Shown: piece after piece, positions 19,603 through 46,644 of the stretch
How the letters are laid out: every line of letters starts with the position of its first letter
How positions within the stretch are numbered: the first letter of the stretch is position 1
Assembly (NCBI GenBank): GCA_012813795.1
Contig: GCA_012813795.1_4087.1
Origin: a phage
Strand: one strand, 5' to 3'
DNA: 64,000 nucleotides
Notes under the pieces: model-generated
What the model was told of the DNA's origin: nothing
Seen by the model: only the letters and a program-made list of their open reading frames with translations
The model's database searches: none
Position numbers and translations under genes: made by a program

Positions 19603-19702
<100 letters not shown>

Positions 19703-19746
19703 ATAGGCACATACGGGTCTGCTTTTAAGCTACTGATTCGGGAATC

Positions 19747-19792
<46 letters not shown>

Positions 19793-19799
19793 CGTTCTT

Positions 19800-20018
<219 letters not shown>

Positions 20019-20027
20019 TAATACCCT

Positions 20028-20429
20028 TTAGTAGTTTAAGTCAGCGGCGTTGAACACACCGAGTGAAGTCTTACCACGTAGTTTAGGGGAAATGACATAT
20101 TTTGTCAATGTCTTTTTACCGTACCAGTACTCGAAATCTTTTTCTTCTACATACGGATTAGGGAAATCCCATTTGCGTTCTTTATGAATTTGCTTGGCCT
20201 GGACTTGAAGCTTTTCAACTTCATCTGGTGGTACAGTATCTACATTATTAAACTGCATGTACATACCTTTTAACCCATCAAGAATTAATTTTTCAGTTTC
20301 TTTAACTAATGTAATCTTTTCGATTCCAGTACTGATATTCATGTAGTCATCTACATAACCATTCCAGATAACAATCTCTGGATTACCTTCGATTCCCTGA
20401 AGCATCTTGATCAAGTCATTCTTTTTCAT
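20028..20429 (-). CDS. hypothetical protein
   Basis: 133-aa ORF. Confidence 0.55.
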   Translation of the reverse strand: MKKNDLIKMLQGIEGNPEIVIWNGYVDDYMNISTGIEKITLVKETEKLILDGLKGMYMQFNNVDTVPPDEVEKLQVQAKQIHKERKWDFPNPYVEEKDFEYWYGKKTLTKYVISPKLRGKTSLGVFNAADLNY

Positions 20430-20437
20430 TTGAATTC

Positions 20438-22078
<1,641 letters not shown>

Positions 22079-22263
22079 ATCACCAACTTTAATTAAAAAA
22101 ATGGATGGTGACGCTTTTAAACGCCGCTGTTAATTCAGCTTTATAACCACCCGTTTTAACTTGCCTTTCGGCTACCTTGACGTGGGGCGTACAGGCTACT
22201 AAAAGCAACTTCTGTAAACATATTTCCACGCCTTACCATTTTCATTATATCAGTACTTTTATC

Positions 22264-23385
<1,122 letters not shown>

Positions 23386-38641: not shown

Positions 38642-38718
38642 ATTAAGTACTCCTTTACTTTGTCTTATTTAACAAATGAATATAAGGCTCCCGATTGAGA
38701 GCCTTATTTCTTTTTATA

Positions 38719-39156
38719 TTATGCGGTTTCTTCTTCGAACTTAGCGACGATATCAACCATTTCATTGATTAGTTTGATATGGTCATAAGTTACTGAACGG
38801 AAATCTACAACAAGTGACTGTTGGAAGAATTCTTCTTCTGGCAACCCACCATCAAAGTTGAGATCAACATTCTCATCATCATTAGTTGGTGCAACCTTGA
38901 TGTTGAAACTATTTTCATCAACAACCAGTTTAACTACACAACCCAAGCAGATAGATAGTACATATGCTGGTTTCTTAGCTGCTTCTTTACGGAAAGGTGC
39001 ACGAAGAGCACATACTACGCTACTAATTTCATCACCTTCTTCTTTATATTTGACGGTAATCATTAGCTCTTCAACTTTAATCGCTTCAATTACACGAGAA
39101 GGGTTTTCTGCGAAGAATGGGTTGTTACGGATTACTTGTTCAAGATTCATATTCAT
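38719..39156 (-). CDS. EE-x-FQ family paralog
   Basis: LPEEEFFQQSLVVDFRSVTYDHIKLI. Confidence 0.6.
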   Translation of the reverse strand: MNMNLEQVIRNNPFFAENPSRVIEAIKVEELMITVKYKEEGDEISSVVCALRAPFRKEAAKKPAYVLSICLGCVVKLVVDENSFNIKVAPTNDDENVDLNFDGGLPEEEFFQQSLVVDFRSVTYDHIKLINEMVDIVAKFEEETA

Positions 39157-39347
39157 TCCTTATTCATATCACTAAAGTTACGGAGATTGCGATTAGCTTT
39201 GAATTGTTTCAAATCACTGAATCGGTCATCAACCAAAAATGTTGCTGTTTCTGTTGCCTGACATGTTGTACAAACTAACATACCTTGTATTGTATACGCT
39301 GTATTGCAATTTGTACAGTACTTTTTTTCAATCAACTCGACGTTCAT
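39153..39347 (-). CDS. small zinc-ribbon protein
   Basis: CTNCN...CTTCQ (two CxxC pairs). Confidence 0.5.
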   Translation of the reverse strand: MNVELIEKKYCTNCNTAYTIQGMLVCTTCQATETATFLVDDRFSDLKQFKANRNLRNFSDMNKE

Positions 39348-39679
39348 AAAACCTTCACATCACTACGTTTATTTCGTGCGTCTTTCTTTTCCTCATCAGT
39401 TCGTGTATCATCTAATTGTAACACAACTTCTTTAAGAATGTCAACATCAATTTCAGCTTCTACGTAATGAAAGTCATTGCGACCAAAAACATACTTCACT
39501 GCAACCCATACACGCTTGTACCATTTAAGAAAAGGATTCAAACGCATACTGACTGTACATTGACCAAGTTTATCATCACCGTGTTCTTCTGTCAAGTCAA
39601 ATTGTGCAATGTGAACACAATGTTCATTTTTATCACCACAAGTACAACGCAACATAAACTCTTTGCTATCTTTACTCAT
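39344..39679 (-). CDS. small Cys/His-rich protein
   Basis: CTCGDKNEHCVH motif. Confidence 0.5.
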   Translation of the reverse strand: MSKDSKEFMLRCTCGDKNEHCVHIAQFDLTEEHGDDKLGQCTVSMRLNPFLKWYKRVWVAVKYVFGRNDFHYVEAEIDVDILKEVVLQLDDTRTDEEKKDARNKRSDVKVL

Positions 39680-40137
39680 ACTGGATATGCCTTTTCAAAC
39701 GATTTCAGAACACCAAACTTAGCAGCATCGTAATCAAATTGATAACTCAATTCACGATTTTCATTCATACGATATACCATATGAAAGTTTGGATAACCAA
39801 TTCTAACAGGTTTATTAGAATTAGCAAGGAGAATTGCCCATTCTTTTACAGGGAACACATTTTCCTGTAACATTTTAAGATTACGTTCAAAGTACTTCAT
39901 AGCTTGTGTGCCAATCTTGTATTCTTGTTCAGTAATCTCATCAATCTCTACACTTTTGGATTCTAAATCAAAAACCCAATTGTTATCTTCGTAGTATAAA
40001 TCTTTTACATCATCGATGGTATATGAATCTGGAAGATCATAAAAAATCCACGCTGATGCCCCTGAACTGGTAATGATACGAATTTTATAATACTTCATCA
40101 CGATCCTCATTACTGTTAATGTAATAGTAACAGACAA
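39676..40137 (-). CDS. hypothetical protein
   Basis: 153-aa ORF. Confidence 0.55.
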   Translation of the reverse strand: MSVTITLTVMRIVMKYYKIRIITSSGASAWIFYDLPDSYTIDDVKDLYYEDNNWVFDLESKSVEIDEITEQEYKIGTQAMKYFERNLKMLQENVFPVKEWAILLANSNKPVRIGYPNFHMVYRMNENRELSYQFDYDAAKFGVLKSFEKAYPV

Positions 40138-40263
40138 TACAGTGTATTACCAATAAAATTAGTTCTATGATGTTAAGCATAACCACATGTGATTGTGGGA
40201 ACACCAGAGCCAATATCAACATTATAGTTGGAATGACGAATATTGTCAACTCTTTTTTCATGT

Positions 40264-40545
40264 TTATTCCTTAATATATGCATACGGCATAAAAACAACT
40301 TCAGCACCATCTACAGTATCAGCTATCACCTTAACAATACTTTCATTTTTGTTACATTGCCATACTTTTGTTATTTTATGCCTGAATACATTTCCATCTT
40401 TGACAATCCAGTACATGTTCATTTTAACAGTGCTTTCTTCACTTGGCACTAAAAGTTCATTTATTGGGGTTGCATCAAATGTTAGTTTGTTCATTTTTAT
40501 ATAAATCCAAAACATATTGTCCAAAATAAAGCTCAATAGCATCAT
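40264..40545 (-). CDS. hypothetical protein
   Basis: 93-aa ORF. Confidence 0.5.
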   Translation of the reverse strand: MMLLSFILDNMFWIYIKMNKLTFDATPINELLVPSEESTVKMNMYWIVKDGNVFRHKITKVWQCNKNESIVKVIADTVDGAEVVFMPYAYIKE

Positions 40546-40822
40546 TTACCATTTGAACCTCATTGCGATATATACCATTTCCACCACACACAGAACACAA
40601 ACACTGATACTGTGGTGTTTTTATTATAACACGACCAGCAGAAAATGACCTTATATCTTTTGCATAGTTCATCTCCATATATTCAAGTTCAAGAGTATGA
40701 TCTACATCCTTATTGTAACATATCCAACAAGTTCTTGAATGATTCATATCAGTTGAACCCCCATAAATGTGCAAATGAACTGTCATTTCTAACCAATTCT
40801 TTTGCATACGAACTAATTGCAT
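40475..40822 (-). CDS. small zinc-finger protein
   Basis: CWICYN...CSVCGGNG. Confidence 0.5.
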   Translation of the reverse strand: MQLVRMQKNWLEMTVHLHIYGGSTDMNHSRTCWICYNKDVDHTLELEYMEMNYAKDIRSFSAGRVIIKTPQYQCLCSVCGGNGIYRNEVQMVNDAIELYFGQYVLDLYKNEQTNI

Positions 40823-41024
40823 TCACAACCATAATATTAACACAATTCAACTCATGAAGAACAAGTTCATTACCACATAATGAACAAGATGTACTATAAA
40901 ATGGTGTTGGTAATTTTATATAGCCACCTCTTAATGGAAAGACTTGTTCCTCTATTGTCAACATTGTATCAGACGGAGTGACAAACATCTCACATTCAAG
41001 ACAACAAATTTTCACTTTATCCAT
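40749..41024 (-). CDS. small zinc-finger protein
   Basis: CCLECEMF...CSLCGNEL. Confidence 0.5.
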   Translation of the reverse strand: MDKVKICCLECEMFVTPSDTMLTIEEQVFPLRGGYIKLPTPFYSTSCSLCGNELVLHELNCVNIMVVNAISSYAKELVRNDSSFAHLWGFN

Positions 41025-41511
41025 TATTCATCTCCTTCAGTACAGTTCTGATATCCTCAAAGGTCTGAACAAACCAGCGGTGTTCATCACTAACATCAAT
41101 GATCTTACCACTATACAAATAATAATGCTCAAACTTCAGAGTACTTTTACGCAATCGTTCAGCAAGTTCAGGATTCTGCATTATTTTAGCACATATCGCA
41201 TCCTGGATTACATTTAATCGCTCAGGTGTCATCTCTATACGGTCATGCATATATGTGTTTGCAGCGGCTTTCGCTGCGGCTCCTGACACCTTTCTAAGTT
41301 CTTCATGCTGTTGTCCAGTGAGGAACCAGAAATAAAAAGACTCAACCGAAGGAAACCATCCATATGGTTCTAGTGTAAAGCTATGGGGAGAAAAATTAGA
41401 TAAATCTCTCCCTAGCTTAGTTTTCCCTTTACTGTAGATATTGATATGCGTGTATCCATCTTCAGTACAGTCAATGTAGTTTTTTGGTTGTTCATCAGGA
41501 AATTCAAACAT
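41017..41511 (-). CDS. NADAR-domain (YbiA-like) protein
   Basis: INIYSKG...LSNFSP...FPSVESFYFWF...RLRKSTLKF pattern fits the NADAR/DUF1768 family. Confidence 0.6.
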   Translation of the reverse strand: MFEFPDEQPKNYIDCTEDGYTHINIYSKGKTKLGRDLSNFSPHSFTLEPYGWFPSVESFYFWFLTGQQHEELRKVSGAAAKAAANTYMHDRIEMTPERLNVIQDAICAKIMQNPELAERLRKSTLKFEHYYLYSGKIIDVSDEHRWFVQTFEDIRTVLKEMNNG

Positions 41512-41864
41512 TATTCTTCATCACCTGATGGTGTTCCGCGTAGTTTATCAAAATCTACCCAAATACCATGCTCATTTTTAAAACGACACTTACCATAGTA
41601 CCAGCTATAGTCAGTTTCGACACCTTGTGAATATGAGCGAACGCTACAATCATACATACCATAGAGATGGCCTTTTACACAGTATGTTCCAAATAACATA
41701 ACAACAAAAACAACGGCTGCACTGATTTTAGGAAAATCCATAACTAAATCGATAACAGAATTTTCTTGATGATTATCAATTTTAGAACGAATAGTTGAAA
41801 TAGTTTTCAGTACTAATACTGCTACAACCAATGAAACCAAAAGCACACATAAGTAAATCAACAT
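41511..41864 (-). CDS. hypothetical protein with N-terminal TM helices
   Basis: 117-aa ORF. Confidence 0.5.
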   Translation of the reverse strand: MLIYLCVLLVSLVVAVLVLKTISTIRSKIDNHQENSVIDLVMDFPKISAAVVFVVMLFGTYCVKGHLYGMYDCSVRSYSQGVETDYSWYYGKCRFKNEHGIWVDFDKLRGTPSGDEE

Positions 41865-41865
41865 A

Positions 41866-42414
41866 TTATTCTCCTAACATTCTTAATACATTAGAAATAA
41901 AGAACACATCAAATGGTTCTTTTGGATTTGCTACAGAATGCTGAAATGCATATTCATGAAAATTTTCACGGTCTAACCAATCTTCATTATTAACTAACAT
42001 TTTTTTCTCACCAAGAATCACACTATGTATAGATGTGAAAGATTCTGTTGATATGGTATATCCAACCAATGTACCTTTTTTAGTGAAATCGAAAGTACCA
42101 AAATAATTTCGGGTATATTGTCTTGTTCTATTTTCAAACATTCTTGCAATATTTTCTTTGTATGGATCAGAATATGGCTGACGATATATGGGGTCTAAAG
42201 ATCCAAACATTTCTATTTTAGATTGCAGGGTTATTAAATTATCCGTGATAAAAAAATGAACGCCTTTATATTCGAAATCCTTCTTACGATTATATGAAAA
42301 TACTGATACATCCCACTCTGATATTACCTGAACGAACTCATTAACACCTCTTTCCAGATCGGGGAGATATGGTAGATCTTTATTATCGTATTGCATGTTT
42401 ATAATCCTTTTCAA
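41866..42414 (-). CDS. hypothetical protein
   Basis: 182-aa ORF. Confidence 0.55.
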   Translation of the reverse strand: MKRIINMQYDNKDLPYLPDLERGVNEFVQVISEWDVSVFSYNRKKDFEYKGVHFFITDNLITLQSKIEMFGSLDPIYRQPYSDPYKENIARMFENRTRQYTRNYFGTFDFTKKGTLVGYTISTESFTSIHSVILGEKKMLVNNEDWLDRENFHEYAFQHSVANPKEPFDVFFISNVLRMLGE

Positions 42415-42964
42415 GATTTAATACTTCTAAAATACTAAATTTATTGGAACCCTCAATGTCTTTAATAAATGCATCTGGATTGTCTTCTAATGAATATATT
42501 TCACCATTGATAAGCGTTTTTTCATGTAGAATCATAGCTGACATAATCTTATTACCCATAGATTCTTTCTCAGGCGTTGTACCATTACTATTGGTGAAGT
42601 AAATGAAGTTACTTGGTAGTTCACTCCACTCAACTGATATGATATTTTTCATAGCTGTTGTTGTACAAACTTTAATATAACGCTCAATAATCGTATTGGA
42701 TGAAGTTGCCGCAATTGTCATTGGATGACCGTGGGCAATATTTACACCGCTTGGAACTGCGATAGATGATGATATATTTGGAACATTGGATTCAATTTTA
42801 GGTTCTTTTATCCCTAAAATAAATTCATAATGACGAGCATGATGCTTCATTTTAAAAATTATAGTATCTGATTCAAAACTATAAGGAAGAATTATATTAT
42901 CATATGCACGCTTTTTGATTTCTGCTATACGCTCGAACAACTTAAGAGTTTCATTATAAAACAT
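42383..42964 (-). CDS. hypothetical protein
   Basis: 193-aa ORF. Confidence 0.55.
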   Translation of the reverse strand: MFYNETLKLFERIAEIKKRAYDNIILPYSFESDTIIFKMKHHARHYEFILGIKEPKIESNVPNISSSIAVPSGVNIAHGHPMTIAATSSNTIIERYIKVCTTTAMKNIISVEWSELPSNFIYFTNSNGTTPEKESMGNKIMSAMILHEKTLINGEIYSLEDNPDAFIKDIEGSNKFSILEVLNLEKDYKHAIR

Positions 42965-42978
42965 AGTTTATATCCTAT

Positions 42979-43007
42979 TAAAAAGGGAGTACATTATTGT
43001 ACTCCCC
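42979..43007 (-). terminator. intrinsic terminator (gggagtacattattgtactccc)
   Basis: Perfect stem followed on the minus strand by TTTTTAAT. Confidence 0.6.
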
Positions 43008-43568: not shown

Positions 43569-44701
43569 ACATTATTTTCCTTCATATAAAGACCAACAAC
43601 AATCGACAGTACAATGAGAATCAAAGATGCAGCAATCATAACATCTTTTCGTGGTTCCATTTTAACTGCCATGTATTCAAACTCTTTATTAGACAGACGT
43701 TCAAACTTAGTCTGTATATTATGAACCTGAACTTTAAGTAAGTCAAGTGTTAATACTTCATTTAACGCATCCATTCGCATTTTAGAATGCAATTCTTCAT
43801 TATTCATACCTTTAGCGAATGACGTACTATTGAATGATTTAACGACACCATCATTACTGATACCAAAGAACATAATCACATCGTTCTTCTTGCCACCACG
43901 CCAGATTGAGGTTACTGCATCAACAAAATTCACGTCATGATAATCATATACTAGTACTTGAATGTTTACTTGCTTTTGTGCACCTAATGTTTTTAACACT
44001 TCACGTAAATATTCATCATACCCACTCACATCGTAATCAGTTTTATTAATAACGTGGTGTGTTTTATAATAATCACTAATACTTGGATATTCAGGTAAAG
44101 ATTCCAGATATTCTTTATCATACATAGAAATCAAATCTTCAGTACTGAATAATGAGTGTTTATCTGCAAATAGATAATTTATGTATGTGTTTTCTGCTGC
44201 TGCATAATCACCATTTTTCACTTCTTGCCAGCGTGGTGGAGTTTGTGTTCCTTGTCTATTGACCCTTTCAATCTCAAACTTACCAACAGTGCTTTTAACG
44301 TACCAATCAATCTCATACGGATAGTCGAATACCTTATAAGATTCACATTCACGTTGTGAGCGACCTTTAGAATCATAGGTAGTCCAGCAACGCTCATGCC
44401 AAGTATAGTGTTTACAAGAACTTGATTGTGATGTGCAGTTCTCACGTTGGCTGTATTTCTCTGTAACCTGACCATTTAGAATTTCAACATCACGAAGTTG
44501 GCTGTAGTTTATCAAGTATGATGTTCCCAATACCAACACCGCTGCAAGAAAGCAAATTCCAGTATGAATTAGCAATTCCTTTGTTGTTATGGCAGTATGG
44601 TATTTGAACTTCATGATTAGAACAACTATCAAACTTGGTATTAGAAGAATTGCTAAGTTCATTGTGTTACCTTTAATAGTTCCCGCGTTCGTTGATTGCA
44701 T
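43565..44701 (-). CDS. membrane protein (N- and C-terminal TM segments)
   Basis: 378-aa ORF. Confidence 0.55.
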   Translation of the reverse strand: MQSTNAGTIKGNTMNLAILLIPSLIVVLIMKFKYHTAITTKELLIHTGICFLAAVLVLGTSYLINYSQLRDVEILNGQVTEKYSQRENCTSQSSSCKHYTWHERCWTTYDSKGRSQRECESYKVFDYPYEIDWYVKSTVGKFEIERVNRQGTQTPPRWQEVKNGDYAAAENTYINYLFADKHSLFSTEDLISMYDKEYLESLPEYPSISDYYKTHHVINKTDYDVSGYDEYLREVLKTLGAQKQVNIQVLVYDYHDVNFVDAVTSIWRGGKKNDVIMFFGISNDGVVKSFNSTSFAKGMNNEELHSKMRMDALNEVLTLDLLKVQVHNIQTKFERLSNKEFEYMAVKMEPRKDVMIAASLILIVLSIVVGLYMKENNV

Positions 44702-45374
44702 TTAAGCAATATGAAACCTGGATAGCTTCACGTGCTGCATCGAATAATGGGTGGTGAAGTTCTAGACCATAAAGACCATGATCAGCAACCATCTCCACAA
44801 ACTTTTTCAATTGTACATCAACAATGGAATCCATGTCAAATTTTTCATCTTCAGTTAGGCGATTCTTAACACTTCGGGCATTCTGTGGTGCATTATATTT
44901 CCACAATTCGCCCACACCAAACATTTTACGATGGTTTGCTTGAAGAATACTACAATCGAAGTGGCAGCCATTACCCCAAATTTCAATATTGTTCTCATTT
45001 CCATTAAGATCATAACGAAGTGAATTCCACAAATCAAGTACATTTTTTGTTTTATACAAATTGTTCTGACTACCGGAAATAATCTCAGGATCTGTCAACG
45101 TGAGTGTGCTAACTACTTCTTCATATGCACCTTTATGATCATTTTGACACATATTCATCCAAAAGTTCATTGAACCTGCATCAACTTTAAGACCAGCATC
45201 AATTTGTTTTTGGAATGGTAGTTTAACATATGCATAACGTGAGATATCTTTCATTGGGTTAGTTGGAACTAAAACAATTGCGTAATTTGGAATGATAATA
45301 TCATAACCACTACGTTCTGGAGTTCCGAAAGATTCAATATCAACTGCATAGTGTGTAACTTTATCTGCCATCAT
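44673..45374 (-). CDS. dexA: DEDD-family 3'-5' exonuclease, T4 DexA-like
   Basis: AVDIESFG (Exo I D-x-E), central WGNGCHFD, HHPLFDAAREA (Exo III H-x4-D); size matches T4 DexA. Confidence 0.6.
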   Translation of the reverse strand: MMADKVTHYAVDIESFGTPERSGYDIIIPNYAIVLVPTNPMKDISRYAYVKLPFQKQIDAGLKVDAGSMNFWMNMCQNDHKGAYEEVVSTLTLTDPEIISGSQNNLYKTKNVLDLWNSLRYDLNGNENNIEIWGNGCHFDCSILQANHRKMFGVGELWKYNAPQNARSVKNRLTEDEKFDMDSIVDVQLKKFVEMVADHGLYGLELHHPLFDAAREAIQVSYCLNAINERGNY

Positions 45375-45439
45375 ATTATCCTTAGATAATTAATAAAATA
45401 TGTGCCCATTATACAATGGGCACATTTATATGTCAACTA

Positions 45440-46615: not shown

Positions 46616-46644
46616 ATTATACGAGCAACACACATTCATGTCAA
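46616..46644 (-). promoter_or_regulatory. sigma70-like early promoter (TTGACA, 17 nt, TATAAT)
   Basis: attata 46616-46621; tgtcaa 46639-46644. Confidence 0.5.

What the first reader, a model, noticed from the sequence alone, without database searches (positions are those of the whole stretch)
41017..41511. Phage-encoded NADAR-domain protein next to a cluster of four tiny zinc-ribbon proteins
41017..41511 has the NADAR/YbiA-like signature. NADAR enzymes reverse ADP-ribosylation (including DarT-type guanine ADP-ribosylation of DNA), so a phage copy is a candidate anti-DarTG counter-defence. Immediately upstream (39153..41024) are four 64-115-aa Cys-rich ORFs with paired CxxC motifs.
Basis: partly seen in the sequence, partly recalled or inferred. 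Interest (0 to 1): 0.6.

Follow-up and report, generated by a model that had tools for sequence, protein, structure and literature searches.

The report
Divergent NADAR hydrolase in jumbo phage
A gene in an E. coli jumbo phage encodes a divergent member of the NADAR family, enzymes that strip ADP-ribose off DNA and that other phages use to defeat a bacterial defence, but it lacks one residue those tested enzymes need, so its target is unknown.

Summary
The ORF at 41017..41511 (- strand, 164 aa) is a real, conserved gene. It corresponds to A4_101 of Escherichia phage A4 (Asteriusvirus), annotated "hypothetical".

The NADAR call is correct at fold level:
- The AlphaFold2 model has pLDDT 89.
- A family profile hits only NADARs in the PDB.

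It does not reach any curated NADAR model (PF08719, PF08010, TIGR02464). It belongs to a large unmodelled clade, seen mostly in phages: 2056 representative clusters and 531 phage genomes. Members are often fused to DUF4326, SLOG and Macro domains.

The ribose-positioning Glu (E57) and the phage-type His (H129) are kept. The diphosphate-binding Lys (AdfN K43, DarG1 K95), which those tested enzymes need for activity, is Leu here and is not conserved in the clade.

An anti-DarTG1 role is therefore plausible by precedent (T4 AdfN) but unproven. An ADP-ribose-derived small molecule is a serious rival target.

Only three of the four "zinc-ribbon" ORFs have paired CxxC motifs. They are interleaved with other genes and restricted to this phage lineage, and nothing links them functionally to the NADAR gene.

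Verdict: a new member of a known kind, of modest interest.

The parts
41017..41511 (-). 164-aa standalone NADAR-fold protein (A4_101 homologue; phrog_652 clade). Key residues: S38-N39-F40, E57, K81, K109, H129-Y130-Y131, W146, R155. L64 sits at the canonical Lys position.
41511..41864 (-). 117-aa predicted membrane protein (phrog_8041). It is the conserved upstream neighbour, and its stop overlaps the NADAR start (TAATG).
   Evidence: The gene in this position carries the same PHROG (8041) in SHEFM2K, and gene order and sizes are the same in RaK2 and PHA46.
40749..41024 (-). 91-aa small protein with CCLEC and CSLC motifs (putative zinc ribbon). Its start overlaps the NADAR stop by 8 nt. It has no PHROG or Pfam family and is a weak tandem paralogue of the next ORF.
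40475..40747 (-). 90-aa small protein with CWIC and CLCSVC motifs (putative zinc ribbon). The maximal ORF runs to 40822. It matches phrog_35738 weakly, is single-copy in SHEFM2K and is absent from RaK2.
39344..39679 (-). 111-aa homologue of RaK2 ORF182, annotated 'virion structural protein' (phrog_12660). It has C12-x-C14 ... H23 ... C41 but no paired CxxC.
39153..39347 (-). 64-aa four-Cys protein (CTNC...CTTC; phrog_27170). All four Cys are conserved in the Asteriusvirus and Alcyoneusvirus relatives.
42953..43007 (-). Terminator-like hairpin (43007..42984) followed by a promoter-like site (42981..42953). This is the likely upstream boundary of the transcription unit that contains the NADAR gene.
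   Evidence: consensus scan only.
38682..38707 (-). Terminator-like hairpin after the gene at 38719..39156. This is the likely downstream boundary of the unit.
   Evidence: consensus scan only.

Best explanation
**What it is (shown).** The gene encodes a small standalone enzyme with the NADAR (YbiA-like) fold. It belongs to a very large NADAR clade, seen mostly in phages, that no Pfam or NCBIfam model captures.

**Transcription (partly shown, partly inferred).**
- The gene sits in a long run of same-strand small genes and overlaps its two neighbours (shown).
- The apparent unit runs from about 42.95 kb to 38.7 kb and is bounded by terminator-like hairpins (consensus matches only).
- It is probably transcribed early or in the middle of infection (inferred).

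**Most likely function (inferred).** It is an N-glycohydrolase that cuts the bond between the distal ribose of ADP-ribose and a nitrogen of its carrier.
- E57 would position the ribose.
- The invariant H129 would take the place of the catalytic Glu or Asp of other NADARs, as in T4 AdfN.
- The canonical diphosphate-binding Lys and the R79-equivalent Arg are missing. The phosphates would therefore have to be held by clade-specific invariant residues: K81, K109, and R35, K28 and T31 in the 'HINIYSKGKTxLGR' loop.

**Likely role (inferred).** Counter-defence, by erasing ADP-ribose marks or ADP-ribose-derived molecules made by host immunity.

**My estimates.**
- NADAR fold: 0.95.
- Active hydrolase on an ADP-ribose-type substrate: about 0.6.
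- Within that, base-linked ADP-ribose on DNA or RNA (DarT1-type, like AdfN): about 0.3 to 0.35.
- Within that, a soluble ADP-ribose derivative: about 0.25 to 0.3.

**Zinc ribbons.** The neighbouring small Cys-rich proteins are co-transcribed lineage-specific genes of unknown role. They are not part of the mechanism.
For: **Fold and superfamily**
- AlphaFold2 model: pLDDT 89, pTM 0.82.
- A 17-sequence profile hits only those three chains in the whole PDB, at E 9.5e-4, 1.4e-3 and 0.43.
- hhalign to YbiA: 91.5% probability. hhalign to T4 AdfN: 82%.
- The only NCBIfam hit is the YbiA-domain model TIGR02464.
- The 54%-identical PHA46 orthologue touches PF08719 at E 0.005.
- BFVD Foldseek finds annotated viral NADAR proteins after the clade's own members.

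**Residues**
- E57 is invariant in 166 of 166 sequences. It aligns with AdfN E36, YbiA E48 and P. nicotianae E43.
- H129 is conserved in 164 of 166 and aligns with AdfN H123.
- Published work places a His at the catalytic Glu/Asp position in phage NADARs (PMC11543638, PMC12945103).
- Strong clade-wide conservation of about 30 positions argues for a working pocket.

**ADP-ribose context of the clade**
- Fusions among 150 representatives: DUF4326 in 31, YAcAr SLOG in 21, DprA-like SLOG in 13, Macro in 3.
- Neighbouring genes in other phages and contigs:
  - a Macro gene in Ea35-70;
  - a true PF03747 ADP-ribosylglycohydrolase in PHA46;
  - a Nudix gene in phiPMW;
  - a cREC gene on a metagenome scaffold.

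**Precedent**
- Every NADAR tested so far hydrolyses guanine-ADP-ribose (PMC11125620, PMC12945103).
- Three phage NADAR lineages neutralise DarTG1 (PMC11825919).
Against: **Missing canonical residues**
- The Lys seven residues after the Glu is Leu (L64). The clade does not conserve it.
- K43A abolishes AdfN counter-defence (PMC11257639). K95 mutation impairs DarG1 (PMC11543638).
- The R79 equivalent is N85.
- The canonical W-G-x-G segment after the catalytic strand has no counterpart.

**Other weaknesses**
- No curated NADAR model reaches threshold on this protein.
- The window's protein differs from GenBank A4_101 at two clade-conserved spots, K86T and G134S. This could mean relaxed constraint.
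- No ART, DarT, NAD-salvage or other ADP-ribose gene is annotated in this 64-kb window.
- There is no N-terminal DNA-binding extension like that of DarG1.
- I could not inspect model coordinates, so the proposed substitute phosphate-binding residues are guesses.
Confidence: 0.6

Rival explanations
1. Anti-DarTG1 factor in the strict sense. The protein removes ADP-ribose from guanine N2 in phage DNA modified by the host DarT1 toxin, exactly as T4 AdfN does.
For: - It is related to AdfN: hhalign 80-82% probability, with a shared Glu and His.
- Clade members hit PF08010 below threshold.
- The 'SKGKTxLGRDLS' motif resembles 'SKSKTTLGVDLS' of the G. lovleyi DarG1-type NADAR.
- All three tested phage NADAR lineages counter DarTG1 (PMC11825919).
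- DarTG1 systems occur in E. coli, the host species of this phage's close relative A4 (PMC11543638).
Against: - The Lys that AdfN (K43A) and DarG1 (K95) need is absent here and in most of the clade.
- It lacks the DNA-binding extension of DarG1.
- The clade's fusions are to nucleotide and ADP-ribose small-molecule domains (SLOG, DUF4326), and none of the 150 representatives scanned carries a DarT domain.
- Even T4 gp30.3 and YbiA failed to rescue DarT1 toxicity in one in vivo test despite being active in vitro (PMC11125620). Activity therefore does not guarantee the role.
Confidence: 0.3
2. Hydrolase for a soluble ADP-ribose-derived molecule. Candidates are an immune signal, a toxic by-product such as a cyclic ADP-ribose isomer or ADPr-1''-phosphate adduct, or an RNA-repair by-product. 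In many relatives it would work with SLOG, DUF4326, Macro or Nudix partners, and here it works alone.
For: - Fusion and neighbourhood pattern: DUF4326, SLOG and Macro fusions; neighbouring Macro, ARH, Nudix, cREC and Nuc_deoxyrib_tr genes.
- This is the architecture for which Iyer et al. predicted soluble-derivative processing (PMC9503650, PMC7824862).
- One 1415-aa protein (P0104) carries both a canonical NADAR domain and this clade's domain, which suggests the two have non-redundant specificities.
- The altered phosphate-binding residues fit a different substrate.
- YbiA itself acts on small molecules.
Against: - No NADAR has yet been shown to act on a soluble ADP-ribose signal.
- The prediction is contextual only.
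- The window protein is standalone, with no such partner annotated nearby.
Confidence: 0.27
3. Non-catalytic or decaying NADAR-fold protein. It would act as a binder or sponge for an ADP-ribose-like ligand, or be a relic with no current role.
For: - The canonical Lys and the R79 equivalent are lost.
- There are extra substitutions at clade-conserved positions compared with GenBank A4 (K86T, G134S) and compared with the clade consensus (W60Y, G84A, F98R, P126K).
Against: - E57, K81, H129, Y130, Y131, W146, R155 and the whole N-terminal motif are retained and near-invariant over more than 160 diverse sequences.
- The gene is intact, tightly coupled to its neighbours and kept in synteny across three jumbo-phage genera.
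Confidence: 0.1
4. The NADAR protein and the small zinc-ribbon proteins form one functional module. For example, the zinc ribbons could target or regulate the hydrolase.
For: - They share an apparent transcription unit and have overlapping start and stop codons.
- The three small paired-CxxC ORFs of the window all lie within 1.9 kb of the NADAR gene.
Against: - The zinc-ribbon ORFs next to the NADAR gene vary in number even among close relatives: two in this phage, one in SHEFM2K, none in RaK2.
- PHA46 has an ARH gene in the downstream region.
- More distant phages that carry the clade show no annotated zinc-ribbon gene and unrelated neighbours. This rests on annotation only, as I did not scan their small ORFs for CxxC.
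- None of the 150 clade representatives matches a zinc-ribbon family in Pfam.
Confidence: 0.07

Closest known systems
T4 gp30.3 / AdfN (Pfam PF08010 Phage_30_3), the 'phage NADAR' family; anti-DarTG1 DNA ADP-ribosylglycohydrolase
   Same: - Small standalone NADAR-fold protein (152 aa against 164 aa) encoded among small phage genes.
- Shared LSNF motif.
- Shared Glu (E36 aligns with E57).
- His in the catalytic strand (H123 aligns with H129), the hallmark of phage NADARs.
- hhalign probability 80-82%.
- Some clade members hit PF08010 weakly.
   Different: - AdfN has K43, which is essential, where this protein has L64.
- The query gives no PF08010 hit at E<=1.
- AdfN lacks the 'DGxxHINIYSKGKT' N-terminal segment.
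- Sequence identity is about 22%.
- No activity has been tested for this clade.
E. coli YbiA / canonical NADAR (PF08719, TIGR02464; PDB 2b3w, 8bau)
   Same: - The conserved SNF motif, the Glu and the A-x-x-A-K-[FI]-x-Q helix line up.
   Different: - No Lys at Glu+7.
- N85 in place of R79.
- His in place of E125.
- No D130/W133 'DxxWG' segment.
- Below the curated thresholds: no Pfam hit, and 16 of 73.7 bits for TIGR02464.
- The canonical clade turns up largely under different phage groups. Of 641 records, most are Staphylococcus and Streptomyces phages, though Vibrio, Pseudomonas and Erwinia appear in both lists. Escherichia is not among the ten commonest organism names.
DarG1 (DarT1-associated NADAR, BC4488 family; PDB 8bat; E. 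coli C7 NADAR)
   Same: - Similar 'SK-x-KT-x-LG-x-DLS' motif before the SNF-type motif.
- Standalone domain.
   Different: - DarG1 has K95 and D171, and an N-terminal basic DNA-binding extension (PMC11543638). This protein has L64, H129 and only a short, low-confidence (pLDDT below 50) N-terminus.
- It is not next to a DarT gene.
Phage and giant-virus NADAR fusions with SLOG, DUF4326 and Macro domains, described by Iyer, Burroughs, Anantharaman and Aravind (PMC7824862, PMC9503650)
   Same: The same sequence clade by direct HMMER search. About half of the top 165 representatives carry extra domains, and these are DUF4326, YAcAr or DprA-like SLOG, Macro and DUF488.
   Different: - The window protein is the bare domain.
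- Those papers give contextual predictions only, and I could not confirm that they list this exact protein, because no supplement was held.

Membership tests
NADAR superfamily | YbiA-like alpha+beta fold (helical core flanked by two small beta sheets) | tested here: met
   - AlphaFold2 pLDDT 89.
NADAR superfamily | Match to a curated NADAR sequence model (PF08719 or TIGR02464) above its cut-off | tested here: not met
   - No PF08719 hit at E<=1.
- TIGR02464 scores 16 bits against a 73.7-bit cut-off.
- Remote homology is still supported by the profile against the PDB (E about 1e-3) and by hhalign at 91.5%.
NADAR superfamily | Conserved ribose-positioning Glu (P. nicotianae E43, E. coli C7 E88, AdfN E36) | tested here: met
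   E57 aligns with it in three independent alignments. It is invariant in 166 of 166 clade sequences.
NADAR superfamily | Diphosphate-binding Lys seven residues after that Glu (K50, K95, K43) | tested here: not met
   - L64 sits at that position, with no Lys or Arg in residues 57-72.
- The clade column reads S 43, L 28, K 26, G 18.
NADAR superfamily | Catalytic acid in the strand after the last core helix (E125 in YbiA-type, D171 in DarG1-type), or His in phage NADARs | tested here: inconclusive
   - H129 (164 of 166) aligns with AdfN H123, matching the published 'His in phage NADARs' (PMC11543638).
- A global hhalign to YbiA instead pairs H129 with H126, at low confidence.
- No residue-level structural alignment was available.
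NADAR superfamily | ADP-ribosyl (N-glycosidic) hydrolase activity | not testable with these tools
   This needs biochemistry.
Phage_30_3 / AdfN family (PF08010) | Match to PF08010 above the gathering score | tested here: not met
   - The query gives no hit.
- Clade relatives score 17-27 bits against a 36-bit cut-off.
- T4 gp30.3 itself scores 237 bits.
Phage_30_3 / AdfN family (PF08010) | Neutralises DarTG1 during infection | not testable with these tools
   This needs plaque and toxicity-rescue assays.
Zinc-ribbon small proteins (the four neighbours) | Two Cys pairs (CxxC-type) separated by a spacer, conserved in homologues | tested here: inconclusive
   - Met for 39153..39347: all four Cys are conserved in SHEFM2K and RaK2.
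- Met for 40475..40747, where both Cys pairs recur in the SHEFM2K protein it aligns with. Both pairs are present in 40749..41024, but its alignments to relatives cover only the second pair.
- Not met for 39344..39679, which has CxC-x6-CxH and whose C21 is not conserved in RaK2.
- No Pfam zinc-ribbon model reaches threshold. The best is DZR at E 0.02.

The most novel reading that the evidence does not exclude
This clade (phrog_652/phrog_11222 type; at least 2056 representative clusters; 531 phage genomes) may be a functionally distinct NADAR subfamily. It would have rebuilt the phosphate-binding half of the active site: no canonical Lys, and invariant K81 plus an 'HINIYSKGKTxLGR' loop instead. 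It would act on a substrate other than guanine-ADP-ribose DNA, for example a soluble ADP-ribose-derived immune signal or a different base or ribosyl linkage. That would make it a new class of phage counter-defence enzyme.
Probability: 0.3. Interest if true: 0.65.

Novelty: new member of a known kind. Interest (0 to 1): 0.33.

Why it matters
- Phage NADARs have just been shown to disarm the DarTG1 defence. Only the T4-type and two other lineages have been tested.
- This gene represents a much larger, unannotated phage NADAR clade. It occurs in about 1% of deposited phage genomes, including Ackermannviridae and many jumbo phages, and is everywhere labelled 'hypothetical'.
- The clade lacks a residue that the tested enzymes require.
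- Testing one member would show one of two things. Either anti-DarT activity extends to this clade, with a different way of holding ADP-ribose, or the clade targets another ADP-ribose-type molecule.
- In practical terms, the clade deserves a family model so that these genes stop being annotated as unknown.
- For this window alone, the result is a sound functional annotation rather than a surprise.

Tried and rejected
- **Direct Pfam scan of the query and nine neighbours:** no NADAR hit and only noise.
- **Single-sequence phmmer against the PDB:** only spurious B-cell receptor hits at E about 1. A profile was needed.
- **Word-indexed homologue search:** only 16 relatives, none carrying a Pfam domain. 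The exhaustive profile search was what exposed the clade.
- **Paralogues of the gene in the window:** none.
- **Another ADP-ribose or NAD gene annotated in the 64-kb window:** none. The nearest annotated functions are a 3'-5' exoribonuclease, a TelA-like protein, a peptidyl-tRNA hydrolase and a cytosine methyltransferase.
- **Conserved NADAR and zinc-ribbon pairing in other phage lineages:** I found none in the gene annotation; I did not scan the small ORFs of those loci for CxxC.
- **Global hhalign of the clade profile to the canonical NADAR domain of P0104:** failed, with probability 0.
- **Supplementary tables of Iyer et al. 2022,** to see whether this protein is listed: none held.
- **Compensating basic residue (R98):** considered and rejected, because it is Cys or Thr in close relatives.
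- **Model coordinates:** I could not read them, so no residue-level superposition on 8bau with ADP-ribose was possible.
Full report
**Origin of the window.** The region 39000..42500 is 99.2% identical to Escherichia phage A4 (ON286972.1). A4 is a 355-kb Asteriusvirus jumbo phage isolated on E. coli LF82. The finding's ORF corresponds to A4_101, annotated 'hypothetical protein'. In my ORF selection, 118 of the window's 123 non-overlapping ORFs lie on the minus strand, most of them small and unannotated.

- The ORF 41017..41511 (-) is 164 aa with an ATG start.
- Its start overlaps the stop of the preceding gene (TAATG). Its last codons overlap the next gene's ATG by 8 nt.
- Homologues exist at 77-85% identity in 121Q-like and RaK2-like phages, at 54% in Salmonella phage PHA46, and at 30-48% in many other phages. 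It is a genuine conserved gene.
- Direct library scans do not call it NADAR. Pfam gives nothing at E<=1, and PHROGs gives phrog_652 and phrog_11222, both 'unknown function'.

**Is it a NADAR?** Yes, at the level of fold and remote homology. Several lines of evidence agree.
- A 17-sequence alignment (A1) searched against all PDB sequences returns only three chains, and all are NADARs: YbiA 2b3w (E 9.5e-4), P. nicotianae NADAR 8bau (1.4e-3) and G. lovleyi NADAR 8bat (0.43).
- The AlphaFold2 model is confident (pLDDT 89, pTM 0.82).
- hhalign gives 91.5% probability to YbiA and 82% to T4 gp30.3.
- The only NCBIfam hit is the YbiA-domain model TIGR02464, far below its cut-off.
- The PHA46 orthologue touches PF08719 at E 0.005.
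- Foldseek against viral models finds clade members first, then annotated NADAR proteins of giant viruses and phages.

**The clade.**
- An exhaustive HMMER search with A1 finds 2056 representative proteins at E<=1e-3, and 626 at E<=1e-30.
- tblastn finds the gene in 531 of 50,697 phage records, almost all labelled hypothetical. These are Ackermannviridae such as Cba120 and Det7, Erwinia, Klebsiella and Escherichia jumbo phages, and Vibrio and Pseudomonas phages.
- About half of the top 165 representatives are standalone and half carry extra domains.
- Pfam on 150 of them shows these fusions:
  - DUF4326: 31
  - YAcAr SLOG: 21
  - DprA-like SLOG: 13
  - DUF488: 5
  - Macro: 3
- Three of the 150 hit PF08010 and two hit PF08719. 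In the members re-scanned (P0104, P0139, P0162) the PF08010 hit lies on the clade domain itself and is below threshold.
- This is the architecture set that Iyer et al. described for viral NADARs (PMC7824862, PMC9503650). [quoted passage not shown]
- One 1415-aa protein (P0104) carries a canonical PF08719 NADAR and this clade's domain side by side. That argues for distinct specificities.
- Canonical YbiA-type NADARs are found largely under other phage groups. Of 641 records, most are Staphylococcus and Streptomyces phages, although Vibrio, Pseudomonas and Erwinia phages appear in both lists. Escherichia is not among the ten commonest names.

**Catalytic residues.** Published work defines these residues:

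| Enzyme | Residues | Source |
|---|---|---|
| E. coli C7 DarG1-type NADAR | E88, K95, D171 | PMC11543638 |
| P. nicotianae NADAR, ribose contacts | E43, E125 | PMC11543638 |
| P. nicotianae NADAR, diphosphate contacts | K50, R79, W89, R93, W133, D130 | PMC11543638 |
| T4 AdfN (both essential) | E36, K43 | PMC11257639 |

Phage NADARs carry His where the others have Glu or Asp (PMC11543638, PMC12945103). In this protein:
- E57 aligns with the Glu in every alignment and is invariant in 166 of 166 clade sequences.
- H129 is conserved in 164 of 166 and aligns with AdfN H123.
- The Lys position is L64, and no Lys or Arg occurs between residues 57 and 72.
- Across the clade that column reads S 43, L 28, K 26, G 18. 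Thirty of 166 members have no basic residue at all in columns 58-69.
- The R79 equivalent is N85. The clade has R or K there in 116 of 166, and the closest relatives have K86 instead.
- The clade has its own near-invariant set: D18, G19, H22, N24, Y26, S27, T31, G34, R35, K81, K109, Y130, Y131, W146 and R155.
- The 'SKGKTxLGRDLS' stretch resembles 'SKSKTTLGVDLS' of the G. lovleyi enzyme.

I read this as an enzyme with a conserved but re-wired phosphate-binding site, not as a dead protein. I could not check this on coordinates.

**Context.**
- In this window no NAD or ADP-ribose gene is annotated nearby.
- In other phages and contigs, clade members sit beside:
  - a Macro (Appr-1-p) gene in Ea35-70, where the clade domain is itself fused to a SLOG domain;
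  - a bona fide PF03747 ADP-ribosylglycohydrolase in PHA46;
  - a Nudix gene and a NinI phosphatase in phiPMW;
  - cREC, Metallophos and nucleoside deoxyribosyltransferase genes on metagenomic contigs.
- The recurring theme is ADP-ribose and nucleotide processing.

**Transcription.**
- Consensus scans place a terminator-like hairpin at 43007..42984, with a promoter-like site at 42981..42953 just downstream of it.
- Another terminator-like hairpin lies at 38707..38682.
- Together these bracket about twelve overlapping genes, including the NADAR gene and the Cys-rich ORFs.
- A perfect 12/12 sigma-70 consensus lies inside the unit at 40249..40221.
- These are pattern matches only.

**The zinc-ribbon neighbours.**
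- Three ORFs have two CxxC-type pairs: 39153..39347, 40475..40747 and 40749..41024.
- The 111-aa ORF 39344..39679 does not. It is the homologue of RaK2 ORF182, annotated 'virion structural protein'.
- The two ORFs next to the NADAR gene are weak tandem paralogues (blastp E 4e-6 in a small database). They are single-copy in SHEFM2K and absent from RaK2.
- The 64-aa four-Cys protein is conserved in all three phages.
- No Pfam, PHROG or NCBIfam match assigns any of the four a function. The only label is phrog_12660's 'virion structural protein' for the 111-aa ORF.
- More distant phages with the clade gene have unrelated annotated neighbours and no annotated zinc-ribbon gene. I did not scan their small ORFs for CxxC motifs.
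- These three are the only small paired-CxxC ORFs in the window, which is mildly non-random. I found nothing linking them functionally to the NADAR gene.

**Interpretation.**
- Shown: a real gene; the NADAR fold; the Glu and His retained; the Lys lost; a large unmodelled clade, seen mostly in phages, with ADP-ribose-related fusions.
- Inferred: it is an N-glycohydrolase for an ADP-ribose-type substrate used in counter-defence (about 0.6).
- Whether the substrate is DarT1-modified guanine in DNA, as for AdfN, or a soluble ADP-ribose derivative, as Iyer et al. predict for such architectures, cannot be decided here. I put them at roughly 0.3 each.
Its own refutation test, loss of a catalytic residue, is partly met.

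**Novelty.**
- NADARs in jumbo phages are documented (PMC7824862, PMC9503650), as are phage NADARs acting as anti-DarTG1 enzymes (PMC11825919).
- This is therefore a new member of a known kind.
- The one real point of interest is the Lys-less active site of a very widespread, untested clade.

Noticed in passing
window 45400..45436 (- strand): A perfect sigma-70 consensus (TTGACA, 17 nt, TATAAT) lies upstream of the 3'-5' exoribonuclease gene. Its -10 hexamer sits inside an 11-bp perfect hairpin (ATGTGCCCATT-GTAT-AATGGGCACAT), which also scores as a terminator on both strands. This looks like a composite terminator and promoter.
   Followed up: partly
window 46616..46644, 45408..45436 and 40221..40249 (- strand): There are three 12/12 matches to the sigma-70 consensus on the coding strand within 12 kb, plus four 11/12 matches. 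The total count of promoter-like sites is no higher than in shuffles, but perfect matches suggest strong host-polymerase (early) promoters.
   Followed up: no
window 41017..41511 compared with GenBank A4_101 (P0001): The window's protein differs from the deposited A4 protein at four residues (D6E, T86K, S134G, E143D, written as window residue then A4 residue). Two of these fall at positions conserved in the close clade (K86) or in the wider clade (G134).
   Followed up: partly
L012 (Salmonella phage PHA46) 3611..4576: In this syntenic jumbo phage the region downstream of the NADAR orthologue holds a full-length ADP-ribosylglycohydrolase (PF03747, E 2.7e-66). Phage A4 has the small zinc-ribbon ORFs in that region instead.
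   Followed up: partly
P0104 (1415 aa, metagenomic): This giant multidomain protein has a canonical PF08719 NADAR at residues 10-143, this clade's NADAR-like domain at about 548-699, and a DUF4326 domain at 1185-1274. It is a natural test case for non-redundant NADAR specificities.
   Followed up: partly
window about 19700..22800 (- strand; A4 record 304019..307087): A4 annotates a cluster of five tRNA genes here (Ser, Ser, Met, Asn, Thr), scattered among small hypothetical genes. I did not re-run a tRNA scan on the window.
   Followed up: no
window 44673..45371 (- strand; A4_95): An annotated 3'-5' exoribonuclease lies 3 kb upstream of the NADAR gene. One clade representative is fused to an Rv2179c-like 3'-5' exoribonuclease domain (E 2.6e-47). 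I did not check whether A4_95 belongs to that family, so any link is unverified.
   Followed up: no
window 40749..41024 and 40475..40747: These two adjacent small Cys-rich ORFs are weak paralogues of each other and of the single SHEFM2K gene M2K_0415. This indicates a recent tandem duplication in the A4 lineage.
   Followed up: yes
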